64,000 nt of DNA from a virus: the IMG/VR virus record IMGVR_UViG_3300025655_000032, positions 3,244-67,243 of that record. One strand, written 5' to 3'. Below the pieces are notes generated by a model. It had not been told where the DNA came from, searched no databases, and saw only the letters and a program-made list of their open reading frames with translations. The position numbers were made by a program, and so were the translations under genes. Positions 7,597 through 63,071 of this stretch are shown here, one piece after another; within the stretch, counting starts at the first letter, position 1; each line of letters opens with the position of its first letter.

Positions 7597-8100
7597 ATGG
7601 ACCACAAGGAACGTGGGCATCTGCACGGGCGCTATGAATGTCAGATCGTGCGCGACGGTAAGGTCATCGACGAATGGGCGGATGACAACATCGTAGTTGA
7701 CGAAGGGCTGGACTATCTGCTCGACGCGGCTATCGCTGGTAATACTGCGTCGACGACTTGGTACGTCGGCCTGCTGAGCAACTATACCCCGGTCGCTGGC
7801 AGCACTATGACTAACTTCGGGGGCAACGAAATTACCGCTTACACCGGCGGTGTTCGTCCGACGTATGTCATCGACGGGGGCGCAGCTTCTTCACAGGCCG
7901 TAAGCAATAGCTCGTCCAAGGCGTCGTTTACTATGACCGGTGCTGCGACGGTCTACGGTGTGTTTCTGAGTGATTCTTCTACCCAAGACACTTCCGGTAC
8001 GGCTTTCTCCGGGGTGTTGTTCGGTAGCTCCAAATCATTGACTACCGACGACGAGCTGCTTGTCACCTACACGCTGACGGCGGCTGACGACGGCGCGTAA
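7597..8100 (+). CDS. Virion/tail structural protein
   Basis: N+VVDEGLDYLL…WYVGL…ASFT pattern seen in phage tail-associated proteins. Confidence 0.6.
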   Translation: MDHKERGHLHGRYECQIVRDGKVIDEWADDNIVVDEGLDYLLDAAIAGNTASTTWYVGLLSNYTPVAGSTMTNFGGNEITAYTGGVRPTYVIDGGAASSQAVSNSSSKASFTMTGAATVYGVFLSDSSTQDTSGTAFSGVLFGSSKSLTTDDELLVTYTLTAADDGA

Positions 8101-18700: not shown

Positions 18701-21700
18701 ACAACAAGAACGACGATGTTCAGCGCGACGAGATCTTTGGTGAGGACGCGGACGGTACAGTAGAGACACGTGCCGGACGTGGCGTAGATCCTGAGCACGC
18801 CTACGCGCGGAAGGCGCAGGCGGAGGCAGACGCTCGACGTCGTGAGGAGGAGCTGGCACAGCAGCGGGCGGAAGAGAAACGCCAAGAGCACAAGGACTGG
18901 GTGGCGAACATGTCCGCGCTGCTGCGGGAGATTGCCTCGCTGATCGGACTGAAGGATGTACGCCTCGTCGGCGTGGAAGAGGCGATCACGATCGTCAACG
19001 AGCGCGCCGACCAAGCTCGACAGCTGGACGCGCTGCGTGTGCTGCGGGCCTCAAAGAGCGCTATGCAGGCTCGTGTCAAGGCGCTGCTGGACGTCGGCCG
19101 CGTGGACGACGCCGTCGCTGCGCTTGACGAGTACGTTGTTGCGCGCAAGCAACACTTCGACGTGAGCGCGGAGCGTCAGGCCCTGGAGCTGCTGTCGAAG
19201 CGTGGTGACCCAACACGCGTGCGTAACATAATCAGCGGGCGCCAGCGCGGGTTCTACGACCGTGCTAGCGGTGCTGTCTACGTGAACCCGTCGCTGCGCG
19301 GAGCCTATGCCACCGCCACCCTCATGCACGAGGTGGGACACGCGGTCATGTACCAGAAGTTCAACGCGCTTAGCGCGAAGGACCAGGCCGCAGTCCTTGA
19401 CGAGTACGAACGCTGGCGCGACCTCTATGGCCGTACCACAGTCACCACGGCGAAGATGTCCAAGCAGGCCATCGCGCACGCTATTGAGGCGGCGGCCTCC
19501 GGTAACCTGGCACGCCTTGACGGTCTGACCGCAGACGAACGTCAAGCGGTGCTGAGCTTTAACGAGTGGTTCGCCGACAACGTAGCGAAGTGGGCCGACA
19601 CCTCTGCGAAGCCCAAGAGCGTCGTCGAGCGCTTCTTCGCCGACGTCGCCGCCGCTATAAAGGCCTTGCTGCGCAGCTTCAAGCTACGCACCGGACAGAA
19701 CTACGAGGCCACTGGCGCAGTCGCTGACTTTATGGATGCGCTAGTCAACCAGGCTGCAGCGCAGCACGCTGCCTACGAGCAGGAGCGTGTAGCCGACGGA
19801 GGCTTTGTAGGCCCGCCACCACCCCCCGGCGGTCGTGGTGGTAGTACACCGCCGCCCCCACCCCCCGGTGGTCGTGGCCTTGCCGGCCGGCTGTCGAACT
19901 GGTACAGCCACTTCCGGCGCGGGCAGCAGTCAGTGCTTAGTACCCGTATGGTAGACGAGGTTCGCGCCTTTATTGAAGAGCATGCCACAGCGGCAGAGAA
20001 GCGTGCGCTGTACCGCGCCGCGCGCAGCGAGGTCATGCAGCGCGCGATGACCAAGGCGCTGGGCAGCAGTGCGCGAGCTGTCCTGCAGATACGTACCGAC
20101 CCAAATATGGCCGCCGCGTACCTGTACGCACTCACCCGTCTTGGCGTTATACAGACCGGACCACAGACTACAAATGTAGTCAACGGGATGGAAGGACGCC
20201 TCAACGACATGTACACACAAGTGTTCGGTGAGCTGTCTGCCGAAGCGCAGTCACAAGCGGTGCTTGATGCTATCGCTGCGGACACCCTACAGCACAACAA
20301 TGACAGCCTGGCGCTACCCGCGGACTTTGTGAACAACCAGCACCGTCGTATGGCACGCGCTATACGCGACAAGGTGATGGGCGCGTACCGTAAGCTGTAC
20401 ACCCCGGTGTTCGGGCTGCCTGCCGAGCGGCTGAACGACATGGACATACCGGTGATGAGCCAGCTGTCCAACCTACTGTTCAACCCAAGCACGGCGCGCG
20501 GTGTACCCCAAGGCTTTCTGCGTGCGAAGTCGCAGAGACGAGCGGAGTTCGACAAGCGCTACCTTGCCTTGGTGAAGGACTTGGATACGGCACAGCGTGA
20601 AGCGATCGCAGCGGTGTTCAACAACCCGGACCTGCTGCGTACGGCGTCGGAAGACGTCCGCACCAAGCACAAAGCGCTTCGCGCGTTGTTCGACGACCTC
20701 TACAAGTACCTCGAGGAGGCCGGCGTCACGTTTGAAAAGCGGCAGAACTACACCCCGTGGATGTTCAACGAGGAGTACGTCACCGCCCACATGGACGAGT
20801 TCGTCGCGCTAGCTTCGAAAGAGCAGTACCAGGGGTACTGGCGGCAGATGAAGGACAAGTGGATCACCGCGCGGCGTGTACCAGCGGACATCACGCTGGA
20901 AGACTTCATTAGGGAGCGCCTGCTTGACCTCACGCGTCCTGAGGGTGTGCAGACAGCCGACACGGAGAGTGGGCACCACAACCCCGGTTTCCGCTTTATG
21001 AACCCTCGTGAGTTGAACTTCCTACAGTCACAGGGTACGGCTGAGGACCGCGTGGAGCTGGCCAAGTTCTTCGAGCCTAGCCTGGACCGTATGCTTGGTA
21101 GCTACATCTCCAGCGCAGTGAAGCGCGCGGAGTTTGCCCGCCGCTTTGGTCTTAACGGTGAGCAGCTCACCAAGATGCTCGACGAGGCCAGAACGGTCTG
21201 GGGCGCCAGCCCGCAAGAACTGGCCTACGCGCAGGCTACCGTGGACTCCGCGCTGGGTATGTACGGTGCGCACACCCGCAAGTGGCTGGAGGATAACTTT
21301 AAGGATACTGAGCTACCCAAGTACCTCAAGAGTATGTTGGTAGGCGAGGGGGCCGGCACCATCAACCCCAAGCTGCAGAACCACATGGGTTGGATCATCA
21401 CCTACCAGAACTATCGGCTGCTGGCACTCTCCGCCTTCATGAGCTTCACCGACCCCTTCACACTGCTGGCGCGTAACGGTAGCTTCCGTGACACGTTCGC
21501 CTCTGTGCGTGAAGCCGCTAAGACGATGTGGGACGCGAGCAGCGGCGATGCGCAGCAGCTCAACGCGCTGCTGGATACAGTCAACACTATCGACTACCAC
21601 AGCATGCACGAAGAAATCATGCGTGAGTTTGGTCAGCACTTCTCGCCCACGCAGCAGAAGCTCAACGACGTGTTGTTTAAATACAACGGTGTGGAGTATC

Positions 21701-22419
21701 TGACACAGTTTGCTCGTCGTGTCGGCACTATCGGTGCGGAGAAGGCGATCGTCAAGTGGTACGAAGGGCAGTCCGAGAACGACATCCGCAAGCTCGAGGA
21801 GCTGGGTATCGAGGTCGGCGACGTACGTGTAGAGAATGGGCACCTGGTGTTCTTATCACCTGCTGAGTACAAGCAGGCGTCGAAGGCAGAGAAGGCGCGT
21901 AACGACCGGCTTATCGGTGCGGTGCGGCAGTTCGTCGACACGACTACGCTGCGCCCCGACGCCACCAACAGACCCACGTGGATGAACGACCCACACGCGG
22001 CGCTGGTGACACACCTCAAGACGTTCCCCTTCGTGTTCCACGACAACATTATCAAGCGGCTGGGTAAAGAGGCGCAGCACGGTGACTTCGCCCCGCTGCT
22101 AGCGACAGCTGTCACCTTCATGGCGATCACGCTTTTCGCAGATTGGCTCCGCGACATGGTAAAATATGGCCCAGAAGGAGCTTCGTGGAAGGCCAACTGG
22201 GGACCGGAAGAATACGTTGCCTATGCTTTCGAGCGTTCGGGGCTGATGGGTCGTGACGAGTTACTGCAAGACGTTCTGGCCCCTGTGCTGCAAGGTGACG
22301 TGGTAAAAGGCGCAGCGGAGGCGTTAGGACCGACAGCCTCGCAGCTGTTGACTATCAGCAGATACGGCCCGTCAGAGCGCGAGCTGCCGCTGCAAGTACT
22401 CTATAGGAACTGGGACTAA
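15784..22419 (+). CDS. Giant internal virion/ejection protein with zincin-like metallopeptidase motif
   Basis: 2211 aa; Gly/Ala-rich N-terminus; RGFYD…VYVN…TLMHEVGHAV…EWFAD (HExxH plus downstream E); Pro/Gly linker. Confidence 0.7.
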   Translation: MARALSDAARTALYWQEEDQHKDESRPLRSFRAGIEGLKGSFNNAAGAVSRLVGANDTAQSFENDARINAARAAGIRGRVPTWQEADSLGDYASYATDMVASNLPLAASMLGPGLVAGGIRGTLAGANALRAGLSGAAVQQAREKAAVGAANKVGFGVYGGTSAGENYGRVLNDPDAEGTPWQKAATSLAAGGASAWLGMKPLQGVQDALTKNAGFGRTVGATAALEGITEAGESVISRLNNRLYNSNVNLLDADARREYIDSMLGGAIVGGAYAGAGYGANKLLQPRAQPEPEVDLNPNGAYNIDDMYVESPQDDGERIAHIEEIRKLLLSPGTWPNTATRNALRDELNQVAKQMRTAEGRAYVAELYGGTGDYDPNVAFDTISPRHDVVRLGQEDNLDEALDPQEELDQVMYDPYGGVGDEQDTRGVEFLGKGPANRPYIFDPANSDYSRGVPEKTIEAYAQVDPSSDYDSVDARALAQAEGKTFLEKTQEIVGADVYRNVDAWRGLQPADARVGGADALPFDAAKGVDPQARSRDRYRSTFADIAGDLFTRRAALQAELEVAQRQSDGTNSGPAVRGLEADIAKLDARIETAAGEFLQRLHFVRRTPRYVDTVSEERAFDLTMYELTAGSNERGRILRRAKQNPGIVKTKDGKLKITPGSNRYVEGSLNGERIWIDLRNLTSAMLNKLTDAGALPQQTERMPSNADGKTRDWIARQRLIQRLAAALNAGLVSMLNTGVKFDLRNIPSDTVFWYDKQRNPITLAEIREAYLPGTKKGAEYLNAKAERDRTIALMEAAGYDPRRIAEVYSQLTPNFDPNPAPLPNMNVSSQEVDEAGTKELGRPYQTSLIEQRTGRVDAGKLSPRERSQLRAEGAKQLERIRSEMAAAGYSPAHINYAHNFLADRYDLKSEKRRAVEGLSEGEKKILERNLLADKGIDYLTQLQHTWQQRKVHKTAPPAEMAPREVPNEQLYNKNDDVQRDEIFGEDADGTVETRAGRGVDPEHAYARKAQAEADARRREEELAQQRAEEKRQEHKDWVANMSALLREIASLIGLKDVRLVGVEEAITIVNERADQARQLDALRVLRASKSAMQARVKALLDVGRVDDAVAALDEYVVARKQHFDVSAERQALELLSKRGDPTRVRNIISGRQRGFYDRASGAVYVNPSLRGAYATATLMHEVGHAVMYQKFNALSAKDQAAVLDEYERWRDLYGRTTVTTAKMSKQAIAHAIEAAASGNLARLDGLTADERQAVLSFNEWFADNVAKWADTSAKPKSVVERFFADVAAAIKALLRSFKLRTGQNYEATGAVADFMDALVNQAAAQHAAYEQERVADGGFVGPPPPPGGRGGSTPPPPPPGGRGLAGRLSNWYSHFRRGQQSVLSTRMVDEVRAFIEEHATAAEKRALYRAARSEVMQRAMTKALGSSARAVLQIRTDPNMAAAYLYALTRLGVIQTGPQTTNVVNGMEGRLNDMYTQVFGELSAEAQSQAVLDAIAADTLQHNNDSLALPADFVNNQHRRMARAIRDKVMGAYRKLYTPVFGLPAERLNDMDIPVMSQLSNLLFNPSTARGVPQGFLRAKSQRRAEFDKRYLALVKDLDTAQREAIAAVFNNPDLLRTASEDVRTKHKALRALFDDLYKYLEEAGVTFEKRQNYTPWMFNEEYVTAHMDEFVALASKEQYQGYWRQMKDKWITARRVPADITLEDFIRERLLDLTRPEGVQTADTESGHHNPGFRFMNPRELNFLQSQGTAEDRVELAKFFEPSLDRMLGSYISSAVKRAEFARRFGLNGEQLTKMLDEARTVWGASPQELAYAQATVDSALGMYGAHTRKWLEDNFKDTELPKYLKSMLVGEGAGTINPKLQNHMGWIITYQNYRLLALSAFMSFTDPFTLLARNGSFRDTFASVREAAKTMWDASSGDAQQLNALLDTVNTIDYHSMHEEIMREFGQHFSPTQQKLNDVLFKYNGVEYLTQFARRVGTIGAEKAIVKWYEGQSENDIRKLEELGIEVGDVRVENGHLVFLSPAEYKQASKAEKARNDRLIGAVRQFVDTTTLRPDATNRPTWMNDPHAALVTHLKTFPFVFHDNIIKRLGKEAQHGDFAPLLATAVTFMAITLFADWLRDMVKYGPEGASWKANWGPEEYVAYAFERSGLMGRDELLQDVLAPVLQGDVVKGAAEALGPTASQLLTISRYGPSERELPLQVLYRNWD

Positions 22420-52348: not shown

Positions 52349-54721
52349 CTACCAGCGCAGCAACACGCGGCTGTGCCGTGCACCGTCGCCAATGACGCTG
52401 AGCTGCACCTGCTCCACGGCGGCAAGCGCCGCGGTGAGCTCTTCCGCCGCCGAGGGCACCGGGTCCAGATCAGACACCTGATAGGTGCCATCTACCCAGT
52501 GGGTTCCGAACAGCGCCGTCTCCAGGTGGTTGCTGCGCATTCCCAGCTCTTCGAAGAAGGCGCCACTCACCAGCTCTGCCGCCACCCGGTTGGGGCCGTA
52601 GGCGACGATAGCCGCCTCGGAGAGCTCTCCTTGGCGCACAGCCAGACGCACCATCAGCCGCACCTCACGGATGCGCTCCTGGGCCTGGTAGCGGGCGTCT
52701 TCGTCGCTCTCATCCAGCTCCACATAGGCACGCACCGCCTCGCGGTACAGCCGGCTGTAGTGACGCACCAACGCCACCGCTGCGGCCGGATCTTCCTCAC
52801 CCAGCAGCACGGCCTGCTTGGCCGCCGTACGCAGCCGATCGGGCAGCTCCGCCCGATCACCACGCAGCCACTGCCACTTCCTGAAGAGCTCATCCAGGAT
52901 TTGGATGCGCTCGAGCATTGCCGCTTCGATGTCAGTCTCCGGGGTACGCCCCGCAGCATGGACCGTGAGCCCGCGCCACGCGGCCAGCTTGGCCTCACCA
53001 CCAACAGCCTGCTGCACCTTGTGCATCTCATCCAGCAGGAAGCCCTGCGCCGGCATCACCGCCTTGGCCGCATCACGCAGCTCCTTCTCCTTGCTGCGCG
53101 CCGCATTGGCGTCCACCGCATGCTTCTGCGCCTCCACGCAGGTCTGACTGACCTGCTGGCCCAGCGCCGCCAGCTCTTCGGTGAGCTGCTCCACCTCGGC
53201 CAGGCGCATGTTGTTCATCATGCTCGGCCCGAGGCGCGAGGCGACACCGTTGGCCATCTCTATCATGATGGCTTCAACAGCGGCGTTCTGCTGGAATTCC
53301 ACCATCGGGACGCCACGCCCGAGGCGCAACGACTCGGGCTGCTCCACGCGCGGCTTGAGCGCAAACCGGGGCTCGAAGACTACCGCCGCATCACCATCGA
53401 AATCACCGCCGGCCGCCTTCCAGCGCGGGTCACCGGGGTTGATCACGATACCGGTACCGTCATCGCGCCCCTGCCACTTGATCTCACCCTCCAGCGTGTA
53501 CAACGCCATGCTGCTGGCGTCCGGCATGGCCGGGTCACGGTGCAGCATCAGCAACCCAGGAGCAGGGTGCTTCTTACTATGGAAGCGCTTGTAGGTGTCG
53601 GGCAGCAGCATCACGCTGCCCATCGGCACCAGCGCGCTTCCATAGACGGTCTCACGCGCCTTGCGCTTGGACGGCTCGAACTGCTTGAGCCACTTCCAGG
53701 GCGCATACTGGCGCATGAACAGCGCCGCCGGCACGCCTGCGCGGATCTTGCGGCTCTCTTCAACGGAGAACACATCGTCCACCGACAGCCGCTTCAGTCG
53801 GCCGTTGTCCGCCCTGATGACCTCCGCCGGGTTCTCAGCCCCGAACAGCACCGCCTGATAGTTCAGGCTGGGGCGTTCGCTTGGCATCGTACGCACCGCG
53901 GCGAACTCCCCCACCTGCGCACCCGTCGGCATGGTGCCACCAAACTGGGCCTCGTTCACCAACCCCTCTTGCTCGGTACAGCCGTTCACCACGAACGGGG
54001 GACGTACCATGCCTTTGGCGTAGTAGTAGATATCGTCCTCGTGGATACGCAACGTGCCGGGGCGAGGACCGTCCATCTTGCGGCTGATCATAACGGTCCC
54101 GTCGTTCTCCTTCTCGAAGAACCGCTCAACGGGTGTGCTGAGCTGCTGCATGAGTCCGCCGGGGCGCTTCATGAGCACTCCCATGCGCACCAACACATGG
54201 GTGTTGGACCCAATCATCTCTTCGACATTGAAGTGCGCGAACACGCGGTCGCGCAGCTCCTTCGCCGCGAAGAAGTACTTCCTGCCCACGCAAGCGACAG
54301 GATAGCGGTCTTGCTGCCGCATGTAGCCGAACAGGGCGTAGAGGGCCTCGTCTCTCGGCTCCATCTCGAAGCGCGCCATGACACCCGCCATCCAGGGGCG
54401 CACGCGGATATTTTCCGCTCGCTTGATGACTCGGAACATGCCCCCGGCTGCGTCATAGCCGGTGTATAACACCTGATCCGCCCCCACAGGCTCCTTGTGC
54501 GTCACCACAAGGACGATACGCTTGTTGAACCGATAGACAGCAGCGTCCACCGCCATCTGTGCCAGCTCATCTTCGTCCGACACGCCATCGATCATGGCCT
54601 CGCGAATCCCCATGCTGGGGACCACGCTGCCGTCTACTCTGACCTCACCGTTCAGCAGGTCGGCGATGGTGCTTGACAGCAGCCGTACGTCTACCACGTT
54701 GTTGTCGACGATCTTCTTCAT
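52349..54721 (-). CDS. Single-subunit two-barrel RNA polymerase (YonO / cellular RdRP-like)
   Basis: Motifs in the expected order: NDGTVMIS, LR…AKGM, LNYQ, HRDP, GGDFDGD (metal-binding), VEAQKH. Confidence 0.8.
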   Translation of the reverse strand: MKKIVDNNVVDVRLLSSTIADLLNGEVRVDGSVVPSMGIREAMIDGVSDEDELAQMAVDAAVYRFNKRIVLVVTHKEPVGADQVLYTGYDAAGGMFRVIKRAENIRVRPWMAGVMARFEMEPRDEALYALFGYMRQQDRYPVACVGRKYFFAAKELRDRVFAHFNVEEMIGSNTHVLVRMGVLMKRPGGLMQQLSTPVERFFEKENDGTVMISRKMDGPRPGTLRIHEDDIYYYAKGMVRPPFVVNGCTEQEGLVNEAQFGGTMPTGAQVGEFAAVRTMPSERPSLNYQAVLFGAENPAEVIRADNGRLKRLSVDDVFSVEESRKIRAGVPAALFMRQYAPWKWLKQFEPSKRKARETVYGSALVPMGSVMLLPDTYKRFHSKKHPAPGLLMLHRDPAMPDASSMALYTLEGEIKWQGRDDGTGIVINPGDPRWKAAGGDFDGDAAVVFEPRFALKPRVEQPESLRLGRGVPMVEFQQNAAVEAIMIEMANGVASRLGPSMMNNMRLAEVEQLTEELAALGQQVSQTCVEAQKHAVDANAARSKEKELRDAAKAVMPAQGFLLDEMHKVQQAVGGEAKLAAWRGLTVHAAGRTPETDIEAAMLERIQILDELFRKWQWLRGDRAELPDRLRTAAKQAVLLGEEDPAAAVALVRHYSRLYREAVRAYVELDESDEDARYQAQERIREVRLMVRLAVRQGELSEAAIVAYGPNRVAAELVSGAFFEELGMRSNHLETALFGTHWVDGTYQVSDLDPVPSAAEELTAALAAVEQVQLSVIGDGARHSRVLLRW

Positions 54722-54912
54722 GATCATGCCTCTTGTATGAGTTGCTGTCCGCAATGCGCTTGCAGACAGATAGACCGACTCGGCAGGCGTTGCCTCGTCG
54801 GATAATGTGGCCAGCCCATAGGGCTAGCCGTATAGGCCCCGGGAGGGGCCGTTAAGGCTCAACAGGATGGGGATAGCACCTCCTCTATGAGGTAGAAGAC
54901 TGGCCTACAGAC

Positions 54913-55014
54913 TTACTGCAAGAACGCAGCAAGGAAGACCAGCTCGAGGATTAGCAGGGCCAGGGACAACCCGCCCAGGAGTAACTGCCAGACAGACTCA
55001 GGCCGTTGCGGCAT
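54913..55014 (-). CDS. 33-aa single-pass membrane peptide (below ORF-track cutoff)
   Basis: AAGGAGAGGCAT-ATG; MPQRPESVWQLLLGGLSLALLILELVFLAAFLQ. Confidence 0.55.
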   Translation of the reverse strand: MPQRPESVWQLLLGGLSLALLILELVFLAAFLQ

Positions 55015-57284: not shown

Positions 57285-57884
57285 GTGCCTAGAGTCACGA
57301 AGCTGCAGCAGTTGCAGCGCCAAGCGCTTCGGGCTAAGGGCTACAAGACCTGCTCCGCCTGCGGGCAGACCCATCCCCACGACCAGTTCACGAAGGACGC
57401 CCACGCTTGGGACGGTCTGTTGAGGTTGTGTCGCGGGTGTTTGAAAGAGAAGAACGAACGTTCACGCACGCCTAAGGCCTTTTATTCGGCCAGCACCCAC
57501 AGCCGGGTGAATTACCTGTTGAGCAAGGCCCGCGAGCGGGCTAAGAGCAAAGGTATAGTTTTCGATTTGAGCTTTGAATGGGCCCTCCAACAGCTGGACA
57601 GCCAGGACTACTGCTGCGCGCGCTCCCACATGCCTTTTGTGTTCACCAACTCGCGTATTCTGGGGGGTGCTACCTCACCCTGGGCGCTGTCTTTTGATCG
57701 GATCGATTCTGCGAAGGGGTATACGGAGGACAACGTACAGCTTGTTTGCCTGATGTACAACTTCGCTAAGAACGCGTTTGATGACGCTGACGTCCTACTG
57801 TTTGCCAGCGCCCTCGCCGCCGCCCACATGGAGCCTATCCTAGAGCTGCATGCTGAGCTGCAAGCACCAACGAGTAGCCCGTGA
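57285..57884 (+). CDS. HNH-like endonuclease with N-terminal Zn-finger
   Basis: C..C…C..C; S.DRIDSAKGYTEDNVQLVC…N.AK. Confidence 0.75.
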   Translation: MPRVTKLQQLQRQALRAKGYKTCSACGQTHPHDQFTKDAHAWDGLLRLCRGCLKEKNERSRTPKAFYSASTHSRVNYLLSKARERAKSKGIVFDLSFEWALQQLDSQDYCCARSHMPFVFTNSRILGGATSPWALSFDRIDSAKGYTEDNVQLVCLMYNFAKNAFDDADVLLFASALAAAHMEPILELHAELQAPTSSP

Positions 57885-58435
57885 ATATCGTCGATAACAT
57901 TGAGGTGGACTTTCGTGACATCGTCGTCCACGACGGTCTGACGGACAAGCAGAACGCCTATGTGTACTGGCGTGAGTTAGGGTTTACCCCTAGACAGGCG
58001 GCGAAGCGTGCGGGCTACGGTTGTGTGAAGACGGGAGCCCGTGACAACGAGAACAACCCGCAGATACGTGAACTGCTGGACAAGTACGTTAAGGATAATC
58101 GTCCCCGCCTGGACGTGGACCGTAACCAGGTGGTTGAGGGCATCATGGAGGCGTTGGCTGTCGCGCGTGAGCAGAGCGACCCTAAGGTGATGATTCAGGC
58201 CTGGACGGAGATCGCGCGGATCACCGGTGTGCAGGCACCGGTGGTGACTAAGGTGGAGCACGAGCACGGCGGCACTATCTCTGTGAACCACATGAAGGAG
58301 GTCAGTGACCAGCGGCTGCTGCAGATGTTGGGGAAGAAGCGGGAGCTGGACTATATCGAGGATGCTGAGTACGAGGTGGTTGAGCATGCAGAAGATGCTG
58401 AGAGCGAAGTCGGGCAATTGGAACGGGACGATTGA
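57881..58435 (+). CDS. terS: Terminase small subunit
   Basis: LTDKQ.AYV…QAAKRAGY HTH pattern; upstream of large terminase. Confidence 0.75.
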   Translation: MNIVDNIEVDFRDIVVHDGLTDKQNAYVYWRELGFTPRQAAKRAGYGCVKTGARDNENNPQIRELLDKYVKDNRPRLDVDRNQVVEGIMEALAVAREQSDPKVMIQAWTEIARITGVQAPVVTKVEHEHGGTISVNHMKEVSDQRLLQMLGKKRELDYIEDAEYEVVEHAEDAESEVGQLERDD

Positions 58436-58733
58436 GCTTGCGTGTATTGTCAGTGGGAAGGGCACCTATGCCGTGGCGCAGCCCCTCGCTTTTACAAACC
58501 AGGATGAAGGGGAGGAGGTCAGGCCGTTCTTCGCTCTTGACCATGACGAGGCGCAAGTACTGATGGACGACCTGTGGCGGTGCGGTATACGCCCGACTGA
58601 GGGGGCGGGTAGCGCCGGCGCGCTGGCCGCCACACAGGCGCACCTTAAGGACCTGCAGCAGCTGATGGTGTGGGCCTACGACCCTAAGAACGGTCCGTGG
58701 GTCATGCAGCAGGGGGAGAGCGAGGATGGCTGA
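58395..58733 (+). CDS. Hypothetical protein
   Basis: AQ.LMDDLW.CGIRPTEG.GSAG…HL.DL pattern. Confidence 0.6.
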   Translation: MLRAKSGNWNGTIELACIVSGKGTYAVAQPLAFTNQDEGEEVRPFFALDHDEAQVLMDDLWRCGIRPTEGAGSAGALAATQAHLKDLQQLMVWAYDPKNGPWVMQQGESEDG

Positions 58734-61700
58734 GGATACACCCGAGCAGCCACCCGAGCAGCCACCGCCACCCGAGGAGAAGGACAGCGCCCTTAGTCCT
58801 CAGTACACCGACAGCGGGCGGCGTATATACGACCGTTGGCCGCTGGGGCAGTACGTGTGCAACATGTGCGAGCGTGAGCTCGGCGTCAGCGACTTCAGGA
58901 GTAACAAGACGACGTGCATACTGTGTCAGGCGCAGGAGTCGTCTGACAAGCTGGCGCGCGCGGTGGCGAAGCGTAAGGCCACACGGCGCTACGCGAACAA
59001 GGTGGAGCGCGGTAAGGACCTTAACCGCCGGTCTAAGGCGGCGGCCAAGAAGAAGCGTGCGGAGGTGGCTAAGGAGCGTGCGGCGAAGGTGCGTGAGGCC
59101 GAGGCCACCGTCGCCAAGCAGGTCAAGATTATAGAGCAGATCCACGACGTTAAGCTGCGGGAGGAGGCGAACGCCAAGCAGAAAGAGCGGCTCGCCGAGG
59201 CCGAGGCGCGTAAGGAGCTGGCCAGCCGTGAGCTGGCCCGGCGTCGTCTGCTGCACTACGTTGAGCGGAACGTGCCGGGGTACGAGGCTGGGTGGGTGCA
59301 CGAGGACATCTGTCGGCGCCTGGAGCGCTTTATGCACGACGTCGAGGATCGTAAGAGTCCGCGCCTTATGATATGGGTGCCGCCGAGGCACGGTAAACAG
59401 CTGCCCCATAGCACGCCAGTGCTGACACCCTCTGGGTGGCGCACTCACGGCGAGCTAGAGGTGGGTGATGAGGTGTTTGGGCCAGATGGCAGTATCCGGA
59501 CTGTGGTCTCCGTATCGGCTCCTTCGGTGGCCGAGTACGAGCTTGAGTTTACCAACGGGACGCGGATCAAGGCCCACGCTAATCACGAGTGGACTGTGTA
59601 CCAACGCGGGAACGGCCGGGTTCGTGGTTGGAAGACCGTCGAGACGCGTTACCTTGCAGGGCGTAGAGTTTGGAGCGGTGGTCGGGCTGTTTTCCAACTC
59701 CCCCCTGTCGACGCGCTGCAATTTCCTTCTCGCGTATATGAAATGCCTCCCTACGTCCTCGGCGCATGGCTTGGTGACGGGTCCTCAATAGCCCCACTGA
59801 TAACACATGGTGCGGTAGATACGGCCGTCATTAGCGCGGTTTGCCAGTACGGCTATACGATGACGAGCCAAAACGTCCACGCAACCACCGGCGTGCGGGG
59901 ATCGCGGTTCGGTAAGGTTGTGGGCAATCCGTCTCGTATGGCCACCGAGCTTCGGTCGCTGGGGGTGTGGGGGGACAAGCACATACCCGACGCCTACAAG
60001 AGGGGAGATATAACACAGCGGTTGCAGCTACTCGCCGGTTTGATCGATACCGACGGGCACGTAGAACCGGCCACCGGTCGCGTTCGTGTAATAACGGGGT
60101 CTCGGCGCCTGGCTGAGGACATTCATGAGGTGGCCACTACACTGGGTTTTGCGCCGTATATAACATCCCAGCCCCCAAAACTTAGTTCTAGCGGTATCCA
60201 GGGTACACAGACCGTATACACCATAGGTTTTCAGCCGACCCAATACATCCCTACTCGAATGCCTCAGAAGCAGGTACTGCGTTTTGCCCCTCGACGCCGC
60301 GTTGGTATTCGTGCGGTTCGTCGTTGTGAGCCGGAGGTCGGTCGGTGTATACAGATTGACGCTGCCGACGGGCTCTACCTTGTCGGCAAGACCTTGATCC
60401 CCACCCACAACAGCGAGATCGCCAGTACGCAGTTCCCAAGCTGGGTGCTGGGGCATCACCCTGACTGGGAGTTTATAGCGACCAGCTACGCTCTCGACCT
60501 GCCATTAGGCTTCAGTCGTAAGATCCGCGCCCGTGTACAGTCGCCTGAGTACAGTGTGCTGTTCCCTAAGACCGAGCTGTCCAAGGACTCGCAGAGCGCA
60601 GAGAGCTGGCGCACTACGGCAGGCGGAGGGTTCCGCGCGGCAGGTGTGGGTGGTGGTATCACCGGTATGGGCGCACACATACTGGTCATTGATGACCCGG
60701 TCAAGGACCAGGAGGAGGCCGACTCTGAGACCGTGCGTGAGAAGGTGTGGTCGTGGTTCGGCTCAACGGCCTACACCCGACTGGCACCGGGTGGTGGTGT
60801 ACTTATTATTCAGTGTATGACGGGTGACACGCCCGTGCTTATGGCTGACGGTACTGAGCGACCGCTTTCAGCTGTGCGCGTCGGTGATTATGTGGCGACG
60901 TACGACGAGGGACGACTGCGGCACGCCAGAGTGTGTCAGTGGGGCTCTAATGGTGATGATTCTATCCTAAAAATCACGACGAACTCGGGTAAAATAGTAC
61001 GGGCTAACGGGAGACACCCGTTCCTGGTTTCTCATAAAGGAGAGCTCGAGTGGATACAGGCGAAGGATTTACAACCGACCCAGCAAATCGTCGCCGTAAA
61101 GGACAGCGTGGTAAGTGGTCAGGGGTTGTTTGCCAAATGGAAGGTTGCGACGAGCCCGTCTCCGCTCGCGGCTATTGTAAATCGCACTATAACAAAGTTA
61201 AGTGGGCTTCGGGCAATCGCCCCCCTTCAGCTAATCCGACGTCTCGGCGCGAGGCGCACCTTAAGCACCGCTACGGTATCAACCTTGCGGAGTACAACTC
61301 CCTGCTGGACAAGCAAGGTGGTCGCTGCGCTATTTGCGGCGAACTTCCCACTTCCAGCAATACCCGTGCGCACTGGGGGAACAAGCTTTGCGTCGACCAC
61401 TGCCACGGTTCTGGAGAGGTTCGCGGATTACTCTGCAACGACTGTAACCTCGCTGTTGGGTACGCTAAAACAGAAGCTACAGCGCGCGCGGTTGCAGATT
61501 ACCTCCGACTTCACTCTGGACCCTATCGTAAGGATTGAGGCTGACGGAGTGGCCGAGGTCTTTGACGTCCAGATAGAGGGGACGGAGAATTTTATAGCTA
61601 ACGGGCTAGTCAGCCATAATACTCGCTGGCATGACGATGACCTCAGCGGGCGTATTGAGCGCACGATGATGGAGGGCTTTAAGGAGTTCGAAGTGCTGTG

Positions 61701-62715
61701 CGTGGACGCCGAGCAGGCGAAGGCCGAAGCCCGTAGTGAGGAGGACGTCGCTGCTGCCGCACGTATGCACTACGAGGCCTACAAGTTTCGAGAGACTATC
61801 GACAGGTGGCATATCGTCAAGTACCCAGCCATCGCAGTGCATGATGAGTACCTTAACAAGACCAGCGGTATTATTCAGGTCAACGACGGCACAGCTCCGC
61901 ACGACTTTACTTCTTCATCCTACCGACTGCTGCGTAAAAAGGGCAGGGCGCTTCACCCCGCTCGTTTCCCGCTGACGTTGCTGCAGAAGTACAAGCGCAC
62001 GCTGCAGCCCCGTCACTGGTCGGCACTGTACCAACAGAACCCTGTGCCCGACGAGGGCGCGTTCTTCACTAGCGACATGTTCCGCTTCCGCCCTACACTC
62101 CCCGACTGGCGTGAGATGACCGTCATGTGTGCGTGGGACTTGGCGGTTGGTGTACGTACAACGAACGACTGGACCGTCGGTGTAGTGGGTGCGCTGGACT
62201 GGGAAGATAACCTGTGGATACTCGACATGGTCCGTGGGCGTTGGCAGACTCACGACATAGCGCGTTATATCCACGATACACATCTGCGTTACGACGCGTC
62301 GGTGACGGGTATTGAGAAAGGGCAGTTGGAGCTGGCCATTATGCCGCAGCTGCAACGTATCATGAAGGAGAAGAACCAGTACATTGCGCTGGCCGAGGGG
62401 CAGGCCGCGCTCAAGCCTATCACTGACAAAGTGATGCGTGCACGCCCACTGCAGGGGCGTATGCAGCAGGGTAAGGTGCTATTTCCGTCCGACCAGCCTT
62501 GGGTAGACTCGCTGCGTAATGAATTCTTACGTTTCCCCACCGGCACCCACGACGATATTGTTGATGCCTGCTCCTGGGTGGCGCGTATGTTTATGAATAC
62601 GCAACCTCCTACTCGCCCTCGCGCTCAAAGCGAAGGGTTACCACAAGGTGTTACCAGTTGGAAAGACCGCCTGCGTGGTATAATGCAAGAGCCAAAGAAC
62701 TTCATGTCACGGTGA
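58726..62715 (+). CDS. terL: Terminase large subunit containing two inteins
   Basis: PPRHGK|S Walker A, IDDPVK Walker B, Q|TRWH.DD, LYQQNP, WDLA, HDDIVDA. Confidence 0.92.
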   Translation: MAEDTPEQPPEQPPPPEEKDSALSPQYTDSGRRIYDRWPLGQYVCNMCERELGVSDFRSNKTTCILCQAQESSDKLARAVAKRKATRRYANKVERGKDLNRRSKAAAKKKRAEVAKERAAKVREAEATVAKQVKIIEQIHDVKLREEANAKQKERLAEAEARKELASRELARRRLLHYVERNVPGYEAGWVHEDICRRLERFMHDVEDRKSPRLMIWVPPRHGKQLPHSTPVLTPSGWRTHGELEVGDEVFGPDGSIRTVVSVSAPSVAEYELEFTNGTRIKAHANHEWTVYQRGNGRVRGWKTVETRYLAGRRVWSGGRAVFQLPPVDALQFPSRVYEMPPYVLGAWLGDGSSIAPLITHGAVDTAVISAVCQYGYTMTSQNVHATTGVRGSRFGKVVGNPSRMATELRSLGVWGDKHIPDAYKRGDITQRLQLLAGLIDTDGHVEPATGRVRVITGSRRLAEDIHEVATTLGFAPYITSQPPKLSSSGIQGTQTVYTIGFQPTQYIPTRMPQKQVLRFAPRRRVGIRAVRRCEPEVGRCIQIDAADGLYLVGKTLIPTHNSEIASTQFPSWVLGHHPDWEFIATSYALDLPLGFSRKIRARVQSPEYSVLFPKTELSKDSQSAESWRTTAGGGFRAAGVGGGITGMGAHILVIDDPVKDQEEADSETVREKVWSWFGSTAYTRLAPGGGVLIIQCMTGDTPVLMADGTERPLSAVRVGDYVATYDEGRLRHARVCQWGSNGDDSILKITTNSGKIVRANGRHPFLVSHKGELEWIQAKDLQPTQQIVAVKDSVVSGQGLFAKWKVATSPSPLAAIVNRTITKLSGLRAIAPLQLIRRLGARRTLSTATVSTLRSTTPCWTSKVVAALFAANFPLPAIPVRTGGTSFASTTATVLERFADYSATTVTSLLGTLKQKLQRARLQITSDFTLDPIVRIEADGVAEVFDVQIEGTENFIANGLVSHNTRWHDDDLSGRIERTMMEGFKEFEVLCVDAEQAKAEARSEEDVAAAARMHYEAYKFRETIDRWHIVKYPAIAVHDEYLNKTSGIIQVNDGTAPHDFTSSSYRLLRKKGRALHPARFPLTLLQKYKRTLQPRHWSALYQQNPVPDEGAFFTSDMFRFRPTLPDWREMTVMCAWDLAVGVRTTNDWTVGVVGALDWEDNLWILDMVRGRWQTHDIARYIHDTHLRYDASVTGIEKGQLELAIMPQLQRIMKEKNQYIALAEGQAALKPITDKVMRARPLQGRMQQGKVLFPSDQPWVDSLRNEFLRFPTGTHDDIVDACSWVARMFMNTQPPTRPRAQSEGLPQGVTSWKDRLRGIMQEPKNFMSR
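59398..60411 (+). mobile_element. Intein 1 (class 3, Gln at position 1) with LAGLIDADG endonuclease, 338 aa
   Basis: QLPHSTPVLT…HEW…LGAWLGDG…LAGLIDTDG…RCIQI…PTHN|S; inserted in Walker A. Confidence 0.88.
60814..61620 (+). mobile_element. Intein 2 (Cys1…HN|T), 269 aa, no in-frame endonuclease
   Basis: CMTGDTPVLMADG…NGRHPF…VFDVQIEGTENFIANGLVSHN|T. Confidence 0.9.
61050..61538 (+). CDS. Endonuclease VII-family homing endonuclease nested out of frame in intein 2
   Basis: RYGI…Y..LL..QGGRCAIC…LCVDHCH..G.VRGLLC..CN..VG; own AAGGAG RBS before GTG. Confidence 0.85.
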   Translation: MDTGEGFTTDPANRRRKGQRGKWSGVVCQMEGCDEPVSARGYCKSHYNKVKWASGNRPPSANPTSRREAHLKHRYGINLAEYNSLLDKQGGRCAICGELPTSSNTRAHWGNKLCVDHCHGSGEVRGLLCNDCNLAVGYAKTEATARAVADYLRLHSGPYRKD

Positions 62716-63071
62716 ATTGCGCATGGAAGTGCCTGTCTGTATCAACATAGACCTGCAAGTGGATGATGTTGCCCTAGCACCGTCAGTACTGGCGGAAGCG
62801 CTCCACGCCATGTCCGTCGAACTCAGCGATACGCAGAGTGTCCCCGAGGCGTTCACTTCCGTTGACGCATGGGTAGATTGGCCGTACGACAGCATGGACC
62901 CTTTATTTCGATGATCGCGTCTATTAAACAGCTATTGCACGCTTTGTACGGTTCATGGCGTTCGCTGCTGCTGTCGTTACAACAGGTGCAGCATAGAAAT
63001 ACGGCGATAAAGCGCGTCCAGACGTTATTCAAGCGGCGTTGACGCTGCAGACCATACCATAAAGGGTATCG

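What the first reader, a model, noticed from the sequence alone, without database searches (positions are those of the whole stretch)
60814..61620. Intein carrying a homing endonuclease in an alternative reading frame with its own RBS
Seen: the in-frame middle of intein 2 is Ser/Thr/Ala/Arg-rich with no recognisable domain. A different frame (61050-61538) encodes a complete Endonuclease VII-type protein with N-terminal Cys/His motifs. Its GTG follows AAGGAG inside TTCTC-ATAAAG-GAGAG, the same variant hairpin found at phage genes. Inference: a dual-coding selfish element whose nuclease is translated separately and may be under the phage translational regulator.
Basis: partly seen in the sequence, partly recalled or inferred. 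Interest (0 to 1): 0.8.

Follow-up and report, generated by a model that had tools for sequence, protein, structure and literature searches.

The report
Intein with out-of-frame homing nuclease
A self-splicing protein insert in this phage's DNA-packaging gene carries its own DNA-cutting enzyme in a shifted reading frame, a layout first described in 2025 for phages of actinobacteria.

Summary
The terminase large subunit gene (58726-62715) holds two inteins. Intein 2 (60814-61620) is open in frame. Its middle, residues 98-222, is Ser/Thr/Ala/Arg-rich and is predicted to be disordered. The +2 frame holds a 162-aa Endonuclease VII-type ORF (61050-61538; Pfam E 9.7e-19).

This is not an assembly error. 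Contigs from independent metagenome runs show no indels. All 99 complete family members that I examined keep the nuclease in the same +2 frame.

Substitution periodicity switches from the intein frame to the nuclease frame in the middle. The nuclease start codon (ATG or GTG) always overlaps an invariant intein Trp codon. It is preceded by a GG(A/G)G Shine-Dalgarno motif that is kept by synonymous choice of a Gly codon. This supports separate translation.

The layout is already in print for actinobacteriophage terminase inteins (bioRxiv 10.1101/2025.01.02.630785). This copy is therefore a new member of a known kind. It sits in an uncultured podophage related to phages of Proteobacteria.

Only this copy has its ribosome-binding site inside the phage's own covarying hairpin, N-CTC-AYAAAG-GAG-N'. 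That hairpin occurs 13 times in this phage against 0.36 expected.

The parts
58726..62715 (+). Terminase large subunit (TerL) precursor ORF, 1329 aa, with two inteins. The mature protein would be about 722 aa.
   Evidence: ORF list. Pfam Terminase_6N, Terminase_6C and Intein_splicing. Aligns with the intein-less 623-aa TerL of Pseudomonas phage CRPAP1904 across both insertion sites.
59398..60411 (+). Intein 1, 338 aa, inserted in the P-loop (PPRHGK|SE). It carries an in-frame LAGLIDADG nuclease. It starts with Gln and ends THN|S, with class-3-like Trp/Cys/Thr positions.
   Evidence: Boundaries from the alignment with CRPAP1904 TerL. Pfam LAGLIDADG_3 E 1.3e-7 and Hom_end E 1.4e-6. The class 3 definition is from passages of PMC5050341. 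The block assignment was read by eye.
60814..61620 (+). Intein 2, 269 aa, class 1 type (Cys1 ... His-Asn|Thr), inserted at GGGVLIIQ|TRWHDDDL.
   Evidence: Pfam Intein_splicing E 8.2e-18. Invariant C1, H68, N269 in 62 relatives.
60814..61104 (+). N-terminal splicing (HINT) part of intein 2, residues 1-97.
   Evidence: AlphaFold2 pLDDT 92-98, all beta strands. Substitutions peak at intein codon position 3 for residues 1-75 (0.61, against 0.33 and 0.29).
61029..61044 (+). Hairpin TTCTC-ATAAAG-GAGAG that holds the nuclease's Shine-Dalgarno motif. It is an exact instance of the phage's own motif CTCAYAAAGGAG.
   Evidence: MFE -4.6 kcal/mol for the 24-mer. It shares a 15-nt identity with the site before the minus-strand gene start near 55014.
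61035..61037 (+). TAA stop in the nuclease frame, 4 codons before its start. It closes that frame upstream.
   Evidence: Read. The open alternative frame starts at 61038.
61037..61042 (+). Shine-Dalgarno AAGGAG, 7 nt before the GTG. Its GGAG comes from the Gly-Glu codons of the intein.
   Evidence: Family-wide, G is at -11 and -10 in 96-97% of 68 unique sequences. The Gly codon is GGA or GGG in 60 of 66, against 200 of 575 elsewhere (Fisher p 2.4e-19).
61050..61538 (+). Homing endonuclease ORF in the +2 frame, 162 aa. The GTG start overlaps the invariant Trp codon 61051-61053 of the intein.
   Evidence: Pfam Endonuclease_7 E 9.7e-19. ATG or GTG at this position in 82 of 82 and 17 of 17 relatives.
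61131..61187 (+). N-terminal zinc-finger-like motif of the nuclease, C28-x4-C33-x9-C43-x2-H46.
   Evidence: C28, C33 and C43 invariant in 62 sequences. pLDDT 86-90.
61254..61508 (+). Endonuclease VII (beta-beta-alpha-Me) catalytic domain, nuclease residues 69-153.
   Evidence: Pfam stretch 69-153. The family profile hits T4 endonuclease VII 1e7d at E 3.7e-8, aligning C..C, DH.H and RGLLCN.CN. Foldseek probability 0.99 for T4 EndoVII chains, but E only 0.02-0.06.
61105..61479 (+). In-frame linker of intein 2 (residues 98-222). It is the terL-frame reading of the nuclease gene and is predicted to be disordered.
   Evidence: pLDDT 32-44. Substitutions peak at intein codon position 2, which is nuclease position 3. 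46% S+T+A+R.
61480..61620 (+). C-terminal splicing part of intein 2 (blocks F and G: VFDVQIEGTENFIANGLVSHN). It overlaps the last roughly 19 codons of the nuclease.
   Evidence: pLDDT 93-98 from residue about 231. Substitutions peak at intein position 3 (0.61, against 0.17 and 0.10).

Best explanation
Intein 2 of the terminase large subunit gene is a mobile intein. Its homing endonuclease is a separate gene nested in the +2 frame of the intein's own coding sequence.

**Shown.** Ribosomes that read terL in frame pass through the nuclease gene. They produce a stop-free, roughly 125-residue disordered linker in the loop where canonical inteins carry their nuclease domain. The flanking HINT halves are intact. 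The nuclease frame is the one under purifying selection in that stretch.

**Inferred.**
- The HINT halves splice the intein out and leave a functional TerL.
- A second set of ribosomes starts at GTG 61050. That start is built on the invariant Trp codon of the intein and is served by a GGAG built on its Gly-Glu codons.
- They make a free 162-aa zinc-finger plus Endonuclease VII-type enzyme.
- This enzyme cuts intein-less terL alleles of co-infecting phages near the IIQ|TRWH site. Recombinational repair then copies the intein and the nuclease together.

**Context.** The layout is the constant state of a large intein family found in phages and prophages of several bacterial phyla. In this phage alone, the nuclease's ribosome-binding site has taken the form of the phage's own SD-sequestering hairpin. 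Its translation is therefore probably governed by whatever acts on that hairpin at about a dozen other genes of this phage.
For: 1. **Anatomy.**
2. **Not an artefact.** Contigs of runs X9 and X10 (estuary, 2025) and X8 (freshwater, 2017) match 60400-62000 with 0 other letters and 0 gaps wherever they cover it.
3. **Same +2 layout in named phages.** It occurs in Gordonia phages Angelicage, Keitabear and Vivi2, in Mycobacterium phages Phlyer and Vincenzo, and in Mycolicibacterium phage phi1_186018. 39 of the 40 best tblastn hits of the nuclease lie under terL annotations.
4. **Same layout in unnamed records.**
   - Viral contigs and named phages: 82 of the 87 sequences scanned gave a complete intein, and all 82 carry the nuclease in +2, at GC 36-68%.
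   - Bacterial genome contigs: 17 of 17 complete family members carry it in +2.
5. **Frame switch of selection.** Mean pairwise differences per codon position are:
   - N-splice part 0.33/0.29/0.61 and C-splice part 0.17/0.10/0.61, in the intein frame.
   - Zn finger 0.36/0.38/0.62 and EndoVII domain 0.33/0.29/0.61, in the nuclease frame.
6. **Start codon.** ATG (70) or GTG (12) lies on the Trp codon in 82 of 82. It is the first start of the open frame in 76 of 82. 17 of 17 three- or four-fold degenerate codons before the Trp end in A or G (binomial p 8e-7).
7. **Shine-Dalgarno motif.** The Gly codon is GGA or GGG in 60 of 66, against 200 of 575 elsewhere (p 2.4e-19).
8. **Upstream stop.** A stop in the nuclease frame lies 6 codons or fewer before the start in 38 of 82. 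This argues against a frameshift fusion.
9. **Folds.** The nuclease model has pLDDT 84. The intein model is confident for residues 1-97 and about 231-269, and below 50 for 98-222. The family profile hits T4 EndoVII at E 3.7e-8.
10. **Hairpin.**
   - 13 sites against 0.36 expected.
   - A start codon lies 5-10 nt after 12 of the 13 sites; two of those 12 (52201, 54891 at 17 nt counted separately) open no real ORF in the scan.
   - The pair flanking CTC/GAG is Watson-Crick in 12 of 13, with four pair types (read).
   - The motif is absent from the related Pseudomonas phage.
   - It is present in only 1 of 68 unique inteins, the window's.
Against: - There is no direct evidence of translation, splicing or cleavage. 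No RNA run was listed and the phage is uncultured.
- The relatives are phylogenetically related, so the k-of-n counts and p-values overstate independence.
- Foldseek gave no PDB match at E <= 0.001 for the nuclease model. The best were Hpy99I at 1.1e-2 and T4 EndoVII at 2.2e-2.
- The closest relatives of the window's intein are only about 63-69% identical. There is therefore no sign of recent homing in this lineage.
- The intein tree largely follows extein type, which is also compatible with long vertical descent.
- The hairpin at the nuclease start has a G-U closing pair and a modest energy of -4.6 kcal/mol.
- The SD pairing probability is 0.63, which ranks only about 24th of 68 relatives. 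SD sequestration as such is therefore not special to this copy.
- All but two of the 13 motif sites lie on the minus strand, while terL is on the plus strand. The supposed co-regulation would therefore cross expression modules.
Confidence: 0.85

Rival explanations
1. This is a sequencing or assembly frameshift. The nuclease is really an in-frame domain of a canonical intein.
For: Two compensating indels could in principle produce the picture. The record is a metagenome assembly.
Against: - Independent contigs from other studies show no indel.
- The same +2 offset occurs in 99 of 99 complete relatives, including finished isolate phage genomes.
- The nuclease frame has its own stop before its start and its own stop at the end.
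Confidence: 0.01
2. The nested ORF is a decaying relic. A free-standing nuclease gene once invaded a mini-intein and is now a silent passenger, kept open only because stops are rare.
For: - The 2025 preprint raises pseudogenisation as one possible fate.
- One relative (L096) has an interrupted nuclease frame.
- This lineage shows no sign of recent transfer.
Against: - The frame is open in full length in 98 of 99 relatives, down to 36% GC.
- Wobble-type periodicity follows the nuclease frame.
- Zinc-binding and catalytic residues are invariant.
- Selection is seen on the start codon and the SD.
Confidence: 0.05
3. The nuclease is made as a fusion by programmed -1 (+2) ribosomal frameshifting from the terL frame. 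The product would be N-extein, intein N-half and nuclease.
For: Both frames are on the same strand and overlap by about 18 codons. Phages use frameshifting in structural genes (general knowledge).
Against: - A stop in the nuclease frame lies 4 codons before the start in the window.
- It lies 6 codons or fewer before the start in 38 of 82 relatives.
- I saw no X XXY YYZ heptamer between that stop and the start (read).
- A conserved ATG/GTG with an SD is what independent initiation needs and what a frameshift does not.
Confidence: 0.03
4. The nested Endonuclease VII is not, or not only, a homing enzyme. It would be a domesticated packaging resolvase, co-expressed with terminase as T4 gp49 is used to clear branched DNA.
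For: - The fold and catalytic core match T4 endonuclease VII.
- The gene sits inside the packaging gene.
- The intein tree tracks extein type and no recent transfer is seen.
- The role of T4 gp49 in packaging is recalled, not from a call.
Against: - All 39 closest relatives of the nuclease lie under terL annotations; the six I read are nested in inteins.
- The preprint reports closely related extein alleles without the intein, and near-identical inteins in different phages. That pattern is typical of a mobile element.
- The phage has a separate free-standing EndoVII-like gene at 57285-57884.
Confidence: 0.06

Closest known systems
[quoted passage not shown]
   Same: - Same host gene and same insertion site (..IQ/VM|TRWH..).
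- Same nuclease family and same frame (their 'frame 3' is +2 here).
- Direct homology: nuclease 54.6% and splicing parts 54% identical to Angelicage.
- I read the abstract, section 15 and 'find' passages.
   Different: - The host phage is a podophage related to phages of Proteobacteria (portal 39% identical to Pseudomonas phages KPP25 and phiR18), not an actinobacteriophage.
- The window's intein falls outside the actinophage clade.
- The terms 'ribosom', 'start codon', 'metagenom' and 'Pseudomonas' do not occur in the preprint's main text.
- The conserved start and SD, the spread across phyla and the local RBS hairpin therefore appear to be additions.
- The preprint's supplements could not be read.
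Canonical bifunctional inteins with an in-frame LAGLIDADG or HNH nuclease domain (intein 1 of this same gene is an example)
   Same: A HINT splicing domain is interrupted at the same structural loop by nuclease-coding DNA. The presumed homing life cycle is the same.
   Different: The nuclease here is a separate polypeptide from another frame. The in-frame reading is a disordered linker.
Split inteins with a free-standing nuclease gene between the halves ('fractured genes', Dassa et al. 2009, known to me only through the preprint's discussion)
   Same: A free-standing-type nuclease gene lies between the N and C splicing halves and is translated on its own.
   Different: Here the intein stays one polypeptide, because the terL frame is kept stop-free through the nuclease gene. 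That outcome occurs in only 2.1% of random recodings.
[quoted passage not shown]
   Same: In both, an in-frame insertion element carries its nuclease in another frame.
   Different: The host genes, nuclease lineages and elements are different. No homology was tested here.
Phage T4 endonuclease VII (gp49; PDB 1e7d, 1en7, 2qnf)
   Same: The zinc-binding C..C / C..C and the DH.H / N catalytic core align (profile E 3.7e-8; Pfam PF02945).
   Different: - The window's protein has an extra N-terminal C-x4-C-x9-C-x2-H finger.
- Identity is only about 30% over about 78 columns.
- T4 gp49 is a junction resolvase, not a homing enzyme (recalled).

Membership tests
Intein (HINT domain, class 1) | N-terminal Cys/Ser nucleophile at position 1 | tested here: met
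   Cys1 is encoded by TGT 60814-60816. It is invariant in 62 relatives.
Intein (HINT domain, class 1) | Block B His, C-terminal His-Asn, and a Cys/Ser/Thr as first C-extein residue | tested here: met
   H68 is invariant, H268 is at least 90% conserved, N269 is invariant, and the +1 residue is Thr.
Intein (HINT domain, class 1) | Profile match to a splicing domain and a HINT-like fold | tested here: met
   Pfam Intein_splicing E 8.2e-18, 65.1 bits against a cut-off of 35.8. The model is all-beta with pLDDT above 90 for residues 1-97 and about 231-269. The fold was not compared with the PDB.
Intein (HINT domain, class 1) | Insertion interrupts a conserved host protein that is contiguous in relatives | tested here: met
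   CRPAP1904 TerL reads GGGVLLIN-TRWHDDDLSGR without the insert.
Intein (HINT domain, class 1) | Protein splicing activity | not testable with these tools
   Inferred from intact motifs and from TerL being essential.
Endonuclease VII / beta-beta-alpha-Me (HNH-like) nucleases (Pfam PF02945) | Profile match above the curated threshold | tested here: met
   67.5 bits against a cut-off of 23.6, E 9.7e-19, covering profile positions 2-81 of 82.
Endonuclease VII / beta-beta-alpha-Me (HNH-like) nucleases (Pfam PF02945) | Four zinc-binding Cys and the Asp/His/Asn catalytic residues | tested here: met
   C93, C96, C129, C132, D116 and H117 are invariant, and N133 is at least 90% conserved, in 62 sequences. 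They align with T4 EndoVII.
Endonuclease VII / beta-beta-alpha-Me (HNH-like) nucleases (Pfam PF02945) | Structural similarity to solved members | tested here: inconclusive
   The top Foldseek hits are Hpy99I and T4 EndoVII (probability 0.95-0.99), but E is 0.011-0.064 and TM about 0.3.
TerL inteins with an out-of-frame EndoVII-like nuclease (2025 preprint) | Nuclease ORF inside the intein, same strand, third frame relative to the intein | tested here: met
   (61050 - 60814) mod 3 = 2. The offset is the same in Angelicage, Keitabear, Vivi2, Phlyer, Vincenzo and phi1_186018.
TerL inteins with an out-of-frame EndoVII-like nuclease (2025 preprint) | Homology of both the intein and the nuclease to the described members, at the same TerL site | tested here: met
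   tblastn to Angelicage gives 54.6% identity at E 2e-47. The alignment is and the tree.
Homing endonuclease (functional class) | Site-specific cleavage of the element-free allele and copying of the element | not testable with these tools
   Only indirect evidence: nuclease and intein always occur together, and the preprint reports a patchy distribution.
Class 3 intein (for intein 1, noted in passing) | No nucleophile at position 1; Trp-Cys-Thr at B12, F4 and G5 | tested here: inconclusive
   Gln is at position 1. HEW, RCIQID and PTHN fit the WCT pattern by eye. The definition is from PMC5050341. No block alignment was made.

The most novel reading that the evidence does not exclude
The out-of-frame layout is not a short-lived intermediate on the way to an in-frame or a split intein, as the 2025 preprint suggests. 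It is the ancestral and stable design of a TerL intein family found across bacterial phyla: 99 of 99 complete members, GC 36-68%, and isolate genomes of Pseudomonadota, Bacillota and Actinomycetota. The nuclease's start codon and Shine-Dalgarno motif are written into the invariant Gly-x3-Trp codons of the HINT domain. In this phage the selfish nuclease has gone one step further. Its ribosome-binding site has been rebuilt into the phage's own covarying operator hairpin, so the phage's translational control circuit now times or limits the nuclease.
Probability: 0.3. Interest if true: 0.65.

Novelty: new member of a known kind. Interest (0 to 1): 0.45.

Why it matters
**Annotation.** The 162-aa nuclease gene is invisible to one-frame-per-locus gene callers. 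The intein would be misread as decaying or as a mini-intein.

**Intein biology.** The comparative results suggest that the recently reported architecture is widespread and old, and that it has its own conserved translation signals. Each is worth checking against the preprint's supplements.
- 99 of 99 complete members use the same frame.
- The start codon is fused to an invariant Trp codon.
- The SD is kept by synonymous choice.

This bears on how nucleases and splicing domains came together. It also offers a natural case of tightly partitioned dual coding: the structured part of each frame overlaps the disordered part of the other.

**Phage biology.** The covarying RBS hairpin at 13 sites, at or near gene starts, is a candidate translational operator with an unknown binding factor.

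Tried and rejected
- **Artefact hypothesis.** Rejected.
- **Recent copy of the neighbouring nuclease.** Rejected. The free-standing EndoVII-like gene at 57285-57884 gives BLASTP E 1.7 against the nested nuclease.
- **Near-identical phage genomes.** Megablast of 40000-64000 against the phage collection found nothing.
- **Rfam.** Only three tRNAs were found and no family for the hairpin.
- **Promoter and terminator scan of 58400-62900.** It gave only weak consensus matches (9 of 12), none clearly placed to serve the nuclease. I draw nothing from it.
- **Foldseek against the PDB.** No match at E <= 0.001 for the nuclease model. The sequence profile was used instead.
- **RNA evidence.** No RNA holder was listed, so nothing can be said on expression.
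- **SD sequestration as a family trait.** The mean SD pairing probability was 0.48, with 7 of 68 above 0.8. There was no shuffle control, so it is left open.
- **Kelley et al. 2016 (PMC5050341).** 'Phlyer', 'Pipefish', 'Vincenzo' and 'endonuclease VII' have 0 occurrences in the main text. I could not tell how that survey classed this intein.
- **Supplements.** Paper supplements are closed. The preprint's supplemental tables list its 63 non-canonical inteins and may bear on the claims of what is new here.
- **Rows dropped.**
  - 5 of 87 sequences without a complete intein by my regular expression: L008, L018, L030, L067 and L087. L003 is a copy of the window.
  - 14 of 82 duplicates at nucleotide level before the statistics.
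  - Only the best 80 of 508 viral-contig hits and the best 80 of 252 genome-contig hits were returned.
  - Of the 80 genome loci, 26 gave a complete intein-like segment. 17 of these are this TerL family. The other 9 are different inteins or exteins without this nuclease.
Full report
**What is there.** The window is part of a 67,243-base IMG/VR virus record that CheckV rates complete. ORF 58726-62715 (1329 aa) is the terminase large subunit (TerL): it has Pfam Terminase_6N, Terminase_6C, Intein_splicing and LAGLIDADG hits. An alignment with the intein-less 623-aa TerL of Pseudomonas phage CRPAP1904 shows two clean insertions.
- Intein 1 lies at 59398-60411, in the P-loop (PPRHGK|SE).
- Intein 2 lies at 60814-61620, at GGGVLIIQ|TRWHDDDLSG.
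- Intein 2 starts with Cys and ends with His-Asn, followed by Thr.

- The in-frame middle of intein 2 (residues 98-222) is 46% Ser+Thr+Ala+Arg, against 26% in the splicing parts.
- It has no Pfam domain.
- In an AlphaFold2 model built on 62 relatives it has pLDDT 32-44 and no secondary structure. Residues 1-97 and about 231-269 are beta-rich with pLDDT above 90.
- The +2 frame holds ORF 61050-61538 (GTG start, 162 aa). It hits Pfam Endonuclease_7 at E 9.7e-19.
- A profile of 62 relatives hits T4 endonuclease VII (1e7d) at E 3.7e-8 and aligns the zinc and catalytic motifs.
- The nuclease model has pLDDT 84. Foldseek ranks Hpy99I and T4 EndoVII on top, but only at E 0.01-0.06.
- AAGGAG lies 7 nt before the GTG, inside TTCTC-ATAAAG-GAGAG (61029-61044). 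A TAA in the nuclease frame lies 4 codons before the start.

**It is not an artefact.** Contigs from runs of other studies match 60400-62000 with no differing letter and no gap wherever they cover it. These were X9 and X10 (estuary, 2025) and X8 (freshwater, 2017). X9 and X8 do not cover the whole stretch, but between them both frame junctions are covered. More tellingly, the same layout recurs in finished phage genomes: Gordonia phages Angelicage, Keitabear and Vivi2, Mycobacterium phages Phlyer and Vincenzo, and Mycolicibacterium phage phi1_186018. 39 of the 40 best tblastn hits of the nuclease in the phage collection lie under terL annotations. The 40th is a free-standing gene of a Pectobacterium phage.

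**How general it is.**
- Of 87 sequences (window, six named phages, 80 loci), 82 gave a complete intein by my pattern.
- All 82 carry the nuclease in the +2 frame, at GC contents from 36% to 68%.
- A scan of bacterial genome contigs gave 17 more complete members, again all 17 in +2. One of them (L096) has an interrupted nuclease frame.
- Among these records are isolates named Bradyrhizobium tropiciagri, Kistimonas scapharcae, Oribacterium sp., Dysosmobacter sp. and Mycolicibacterium vanbaalenii.
- MAG labels for phage-like contigs are unreliable, so I do not lean on them.

**Which frame is under selection.** I built codon alignments of 68 unique sequences and measured mean pairwise differences per codon position.

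| Region | Frame used | Position 1 | Position 2 | Position 3 |
|---|---|---|---|---|
| N-terminal splicing part | intein | 0.33 | 0.29 | 0.61 |
| C-terminal splicing part | intein | 0.17 | 0.10 | 0.61 |
| Zinc finger | nuclease | 0.36 | 0.38 | 0.62 |
| EndoVII domain | nuclease | 0.33 | 0.29 | 0.61 |
| 5' overlap (about 20 codons) | nuclease | 0.43 | 0.45 | 0.53 |

- The wobble-like peak therefore jumps from intein position 3 to intein position 2, which is nuclease position 3.
- The middle of the intein evolves as a nuclease gene. In the terL frame it is constrained only to avoid stops.
- That constraint is real. With synonymous recoding of the nuclease using each locus's own extein codon usage, the terL frame stays open in 2.1% of 5000 trials for the window. 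The median is 2.1% over 68, and the figure is 0 of 5000 in several low-GC members.
- The structured part of each frame overlaps the low-confidence part of the other. Nuclease residues 1-20 (pLDDT 52-62) overlap intein strands 80-97. The nuclease tail 151-162 overlaps the start of the C-terminal splicing part.

**Separate translation.**
- In 82 of 82 inteins the last base of the codon before an invariant Trp, plus the TG of TGG, forms ATG (70) or GTG (12) in the +2 frame. This is the first start of the open frame in 76 of 82.
- Where that codon is three- or four-fold degenerate, it ends in A or G in 17 of 17 unique sequences. The background is 44% (p 8e-7).
- Positions -11 and -10 are G in 96-97% of sequences. 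They belong to a conserved Gly codon that is GGA or GGG in 60 of 66, against 200 of 575 Gly codons elsewhere in the splicing parts (Fisher p 2.4e-19).
- A stop in the nuclease frame lies 6 codons or fewer before the start in 38 of 82.
- Together these argue for internal initiation and against a frameshift fusion or a silent relic.
- The sequences are related, so these p-values overstate independence.

**The hairpin.**
- CTCAYAAAGGAG occurs 13 times at up to 1 mismatch (7 exact), against 0.36 expected, and 0 of 100 shuffles reach 13.
- 11 of the 13 sites are on the minus strand, which carries the replication and nucleotide-metabolism genes named. A start codon follows within 5-10 nt at 12 of the 13 sites. 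For two sites (52201 and 54891) the scan found no real ORF behind the nearest start.
- The base pair flanking the invariant CTC/GAG is Watson-Crick in 12 of 13 sites, with four different pair types (read). The stem is therefore real.
- The motif is absent from the related Pseudomonas phage CRPAP1904.
- It is present in only 1 of 68 unique inteins, the window's.
- The nuclease's site shares 15 identical bases with the site before the minus-strand gene start near 55014.
- From the family's column frequencies, a chance match of the 12-mer at that place has a probability of roughly 2e-4. This is my hand product, made post hoc, with the window included.
- I read this as the nuclease's ribosome-binding site having been remodelled to the phage's own signal.
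- What binds or opens the hairpin is unknown. Rfam has no family for it.

**Where the phage and the intein sit.**
- The portal is 39% identical to those of Pseudomonas phages phiR18, KPP25 and CRPAP1904. Weaker hits go to Acidovorax, Aeromonas and Ralstonia phages.
- The TerL exteins align well with CRPAP1904.
- The host is therefore probably a proteobacterium of fresh or estuarine water. This is an inference.
- In a quick maximum-likelihood tree of splicing parts plus nuclease, the six actinophage inteins form one supported clade (SH-aLRT 97).
- The window is sister (SH-aLRT 90) to 17 loci with GGGVLxIQ|T(W/R)WHDD-type exteins.
- Its nearest relatives are only about 63-69% identical. I see no trace of recent transfer.

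**Comparison with what is known.**
- The architecture is in print. Gosselin, Arsenault and Gogarten (bioRxiv 10.1101/2025.01.02.630785) report an endonuclease VII-like nuclease in 'frame 3' of TerL inteins of actinobacteriophages. They name Angelicage, Affeca, Keitabear and Sedona and call it previously unreported. They propose invasion of an intein by a free-standing nuclease gene. I read the abstract, section 15 and 'find' passages.
- Their main text has no occurrence of 'ribosom', 'start codon', 'metagenom' or 'Pseudomonas'. I could not read their supplements.
- Related cases are a cyanobacterial dnaX intein with an out-of-frame nuclease (bioRxiv 10.64898/2026.09.14.751524; abstract and outline) and the ShiLan insert (PMC11855218; listing only).
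- My two literature searches found no report of this intein type outside actinobacteriophages, and none of the conserved start and SD. That is only as good as those searches.

**Verdict.**
- It is a new member of a known, recently described kind, in a new phage lineage.
- The comparative additions are that the layout is the constant state of a large family spanning several phyla, and that the translation signals are embedded in HINT codons.
- The local peculiarity is the RBS captured in the phage's own hairpin, which would be worth a test.
- Interest is moderate.

Noticed in passing
window 59398-60411 (+): A first intein sits in the TerL P-loop (PPRHGK|SE) with an in-frame LAGLIDADG nuclease. 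It starts with Gln and shows Trp/Cys/Thr at positions that look like the class 3 'WCT' triplet (HEW, RCIQID, PTHN).
   Followed up: partly
window, 13 sites: 23964, 61031 (+); 29216, 32888, 35925, 37495, 46736, 46992, 51394, 52201, 54891, 55032, 56578 (-): A phage-specific hairpin N-CTC-AYAAAG-GAG-N' holds the Shine-Dalgarno motif, with a start codon 5-10 nt downstream at 12 of the 13 sites; two sites (52201, 54891) show no real ORF behind the nearest start. The genes served include ribonucleotide reductase and rIIA. The outer pair covaries (12 of 13 Watson-Crick, four pair types). The motif is absent from Pseudomonas phage CRPAP1904. It is a candidate translational operator or processing site with an unknown factor.
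   Followed up: partly
window 57285-57884 (+): A free-standing EndoVII/HNH-like gene (PHROG endonuclease VII, E 5.5e-28) lies two genes upstream of terL. It is not related to the nested nuclease (BLASTP E 1.7) and has no Pfam hit.
   Followed up: partly
window 58726-59390 (+): TerL has an N-terminal extension of about 220 aa, with a CxxC...CxxC zinc-ribbon-like motif and a long Lys/Arg/Glu/Ala-rich stretch before the ATPase. CRPAP1904 TerL also starts with a Cys-rich motif.
   Followed up: no
L096 (uncultured bacterium bin), intein at about 2501-3316: This is the only family member seen with an interrupted nuclease frame (open segment 115 aa, E 4.6e-36). The intein frame is still open, so it may be a decaying copy.
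   Followed up: no
L005 (Mycobacterium phage Vincenzo) 1357-1941: The nested nuclease has two N-terminal Cys/His finger motifs in tandem. The intein is correspondingly longer (300 aa).
   Followed up: no
window 61588-61640, run X9 record 9: A contig of another organism in the estuary run matches only the intein C-terminus and extein junction (5 differences in 53 bases) and then diverges. A second phage with a related intein is in the same sample.
   Followed up: no
window 61006-61022 (+): A second stem, AACGGG-AGACA-CCCGTT, lies over the invariant Asn-Gly-Arg-His-Pro-Phe codons, just upstream of the nuclease's ribosome-binding site. The terminator-like scan flagged it. I did not test whether it is conserved in the family.
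   Followed up: no
window 15784-22419 (+): A 2211-aa virion structural protein (PHROG 30152) has a weak, sub-threshold DUF6782 metallopeptidase-like hit. Two proteins of about 800 aa (8100-10514 on +, 52349-54754 on -) have no family hit at all.
   Followed up: no
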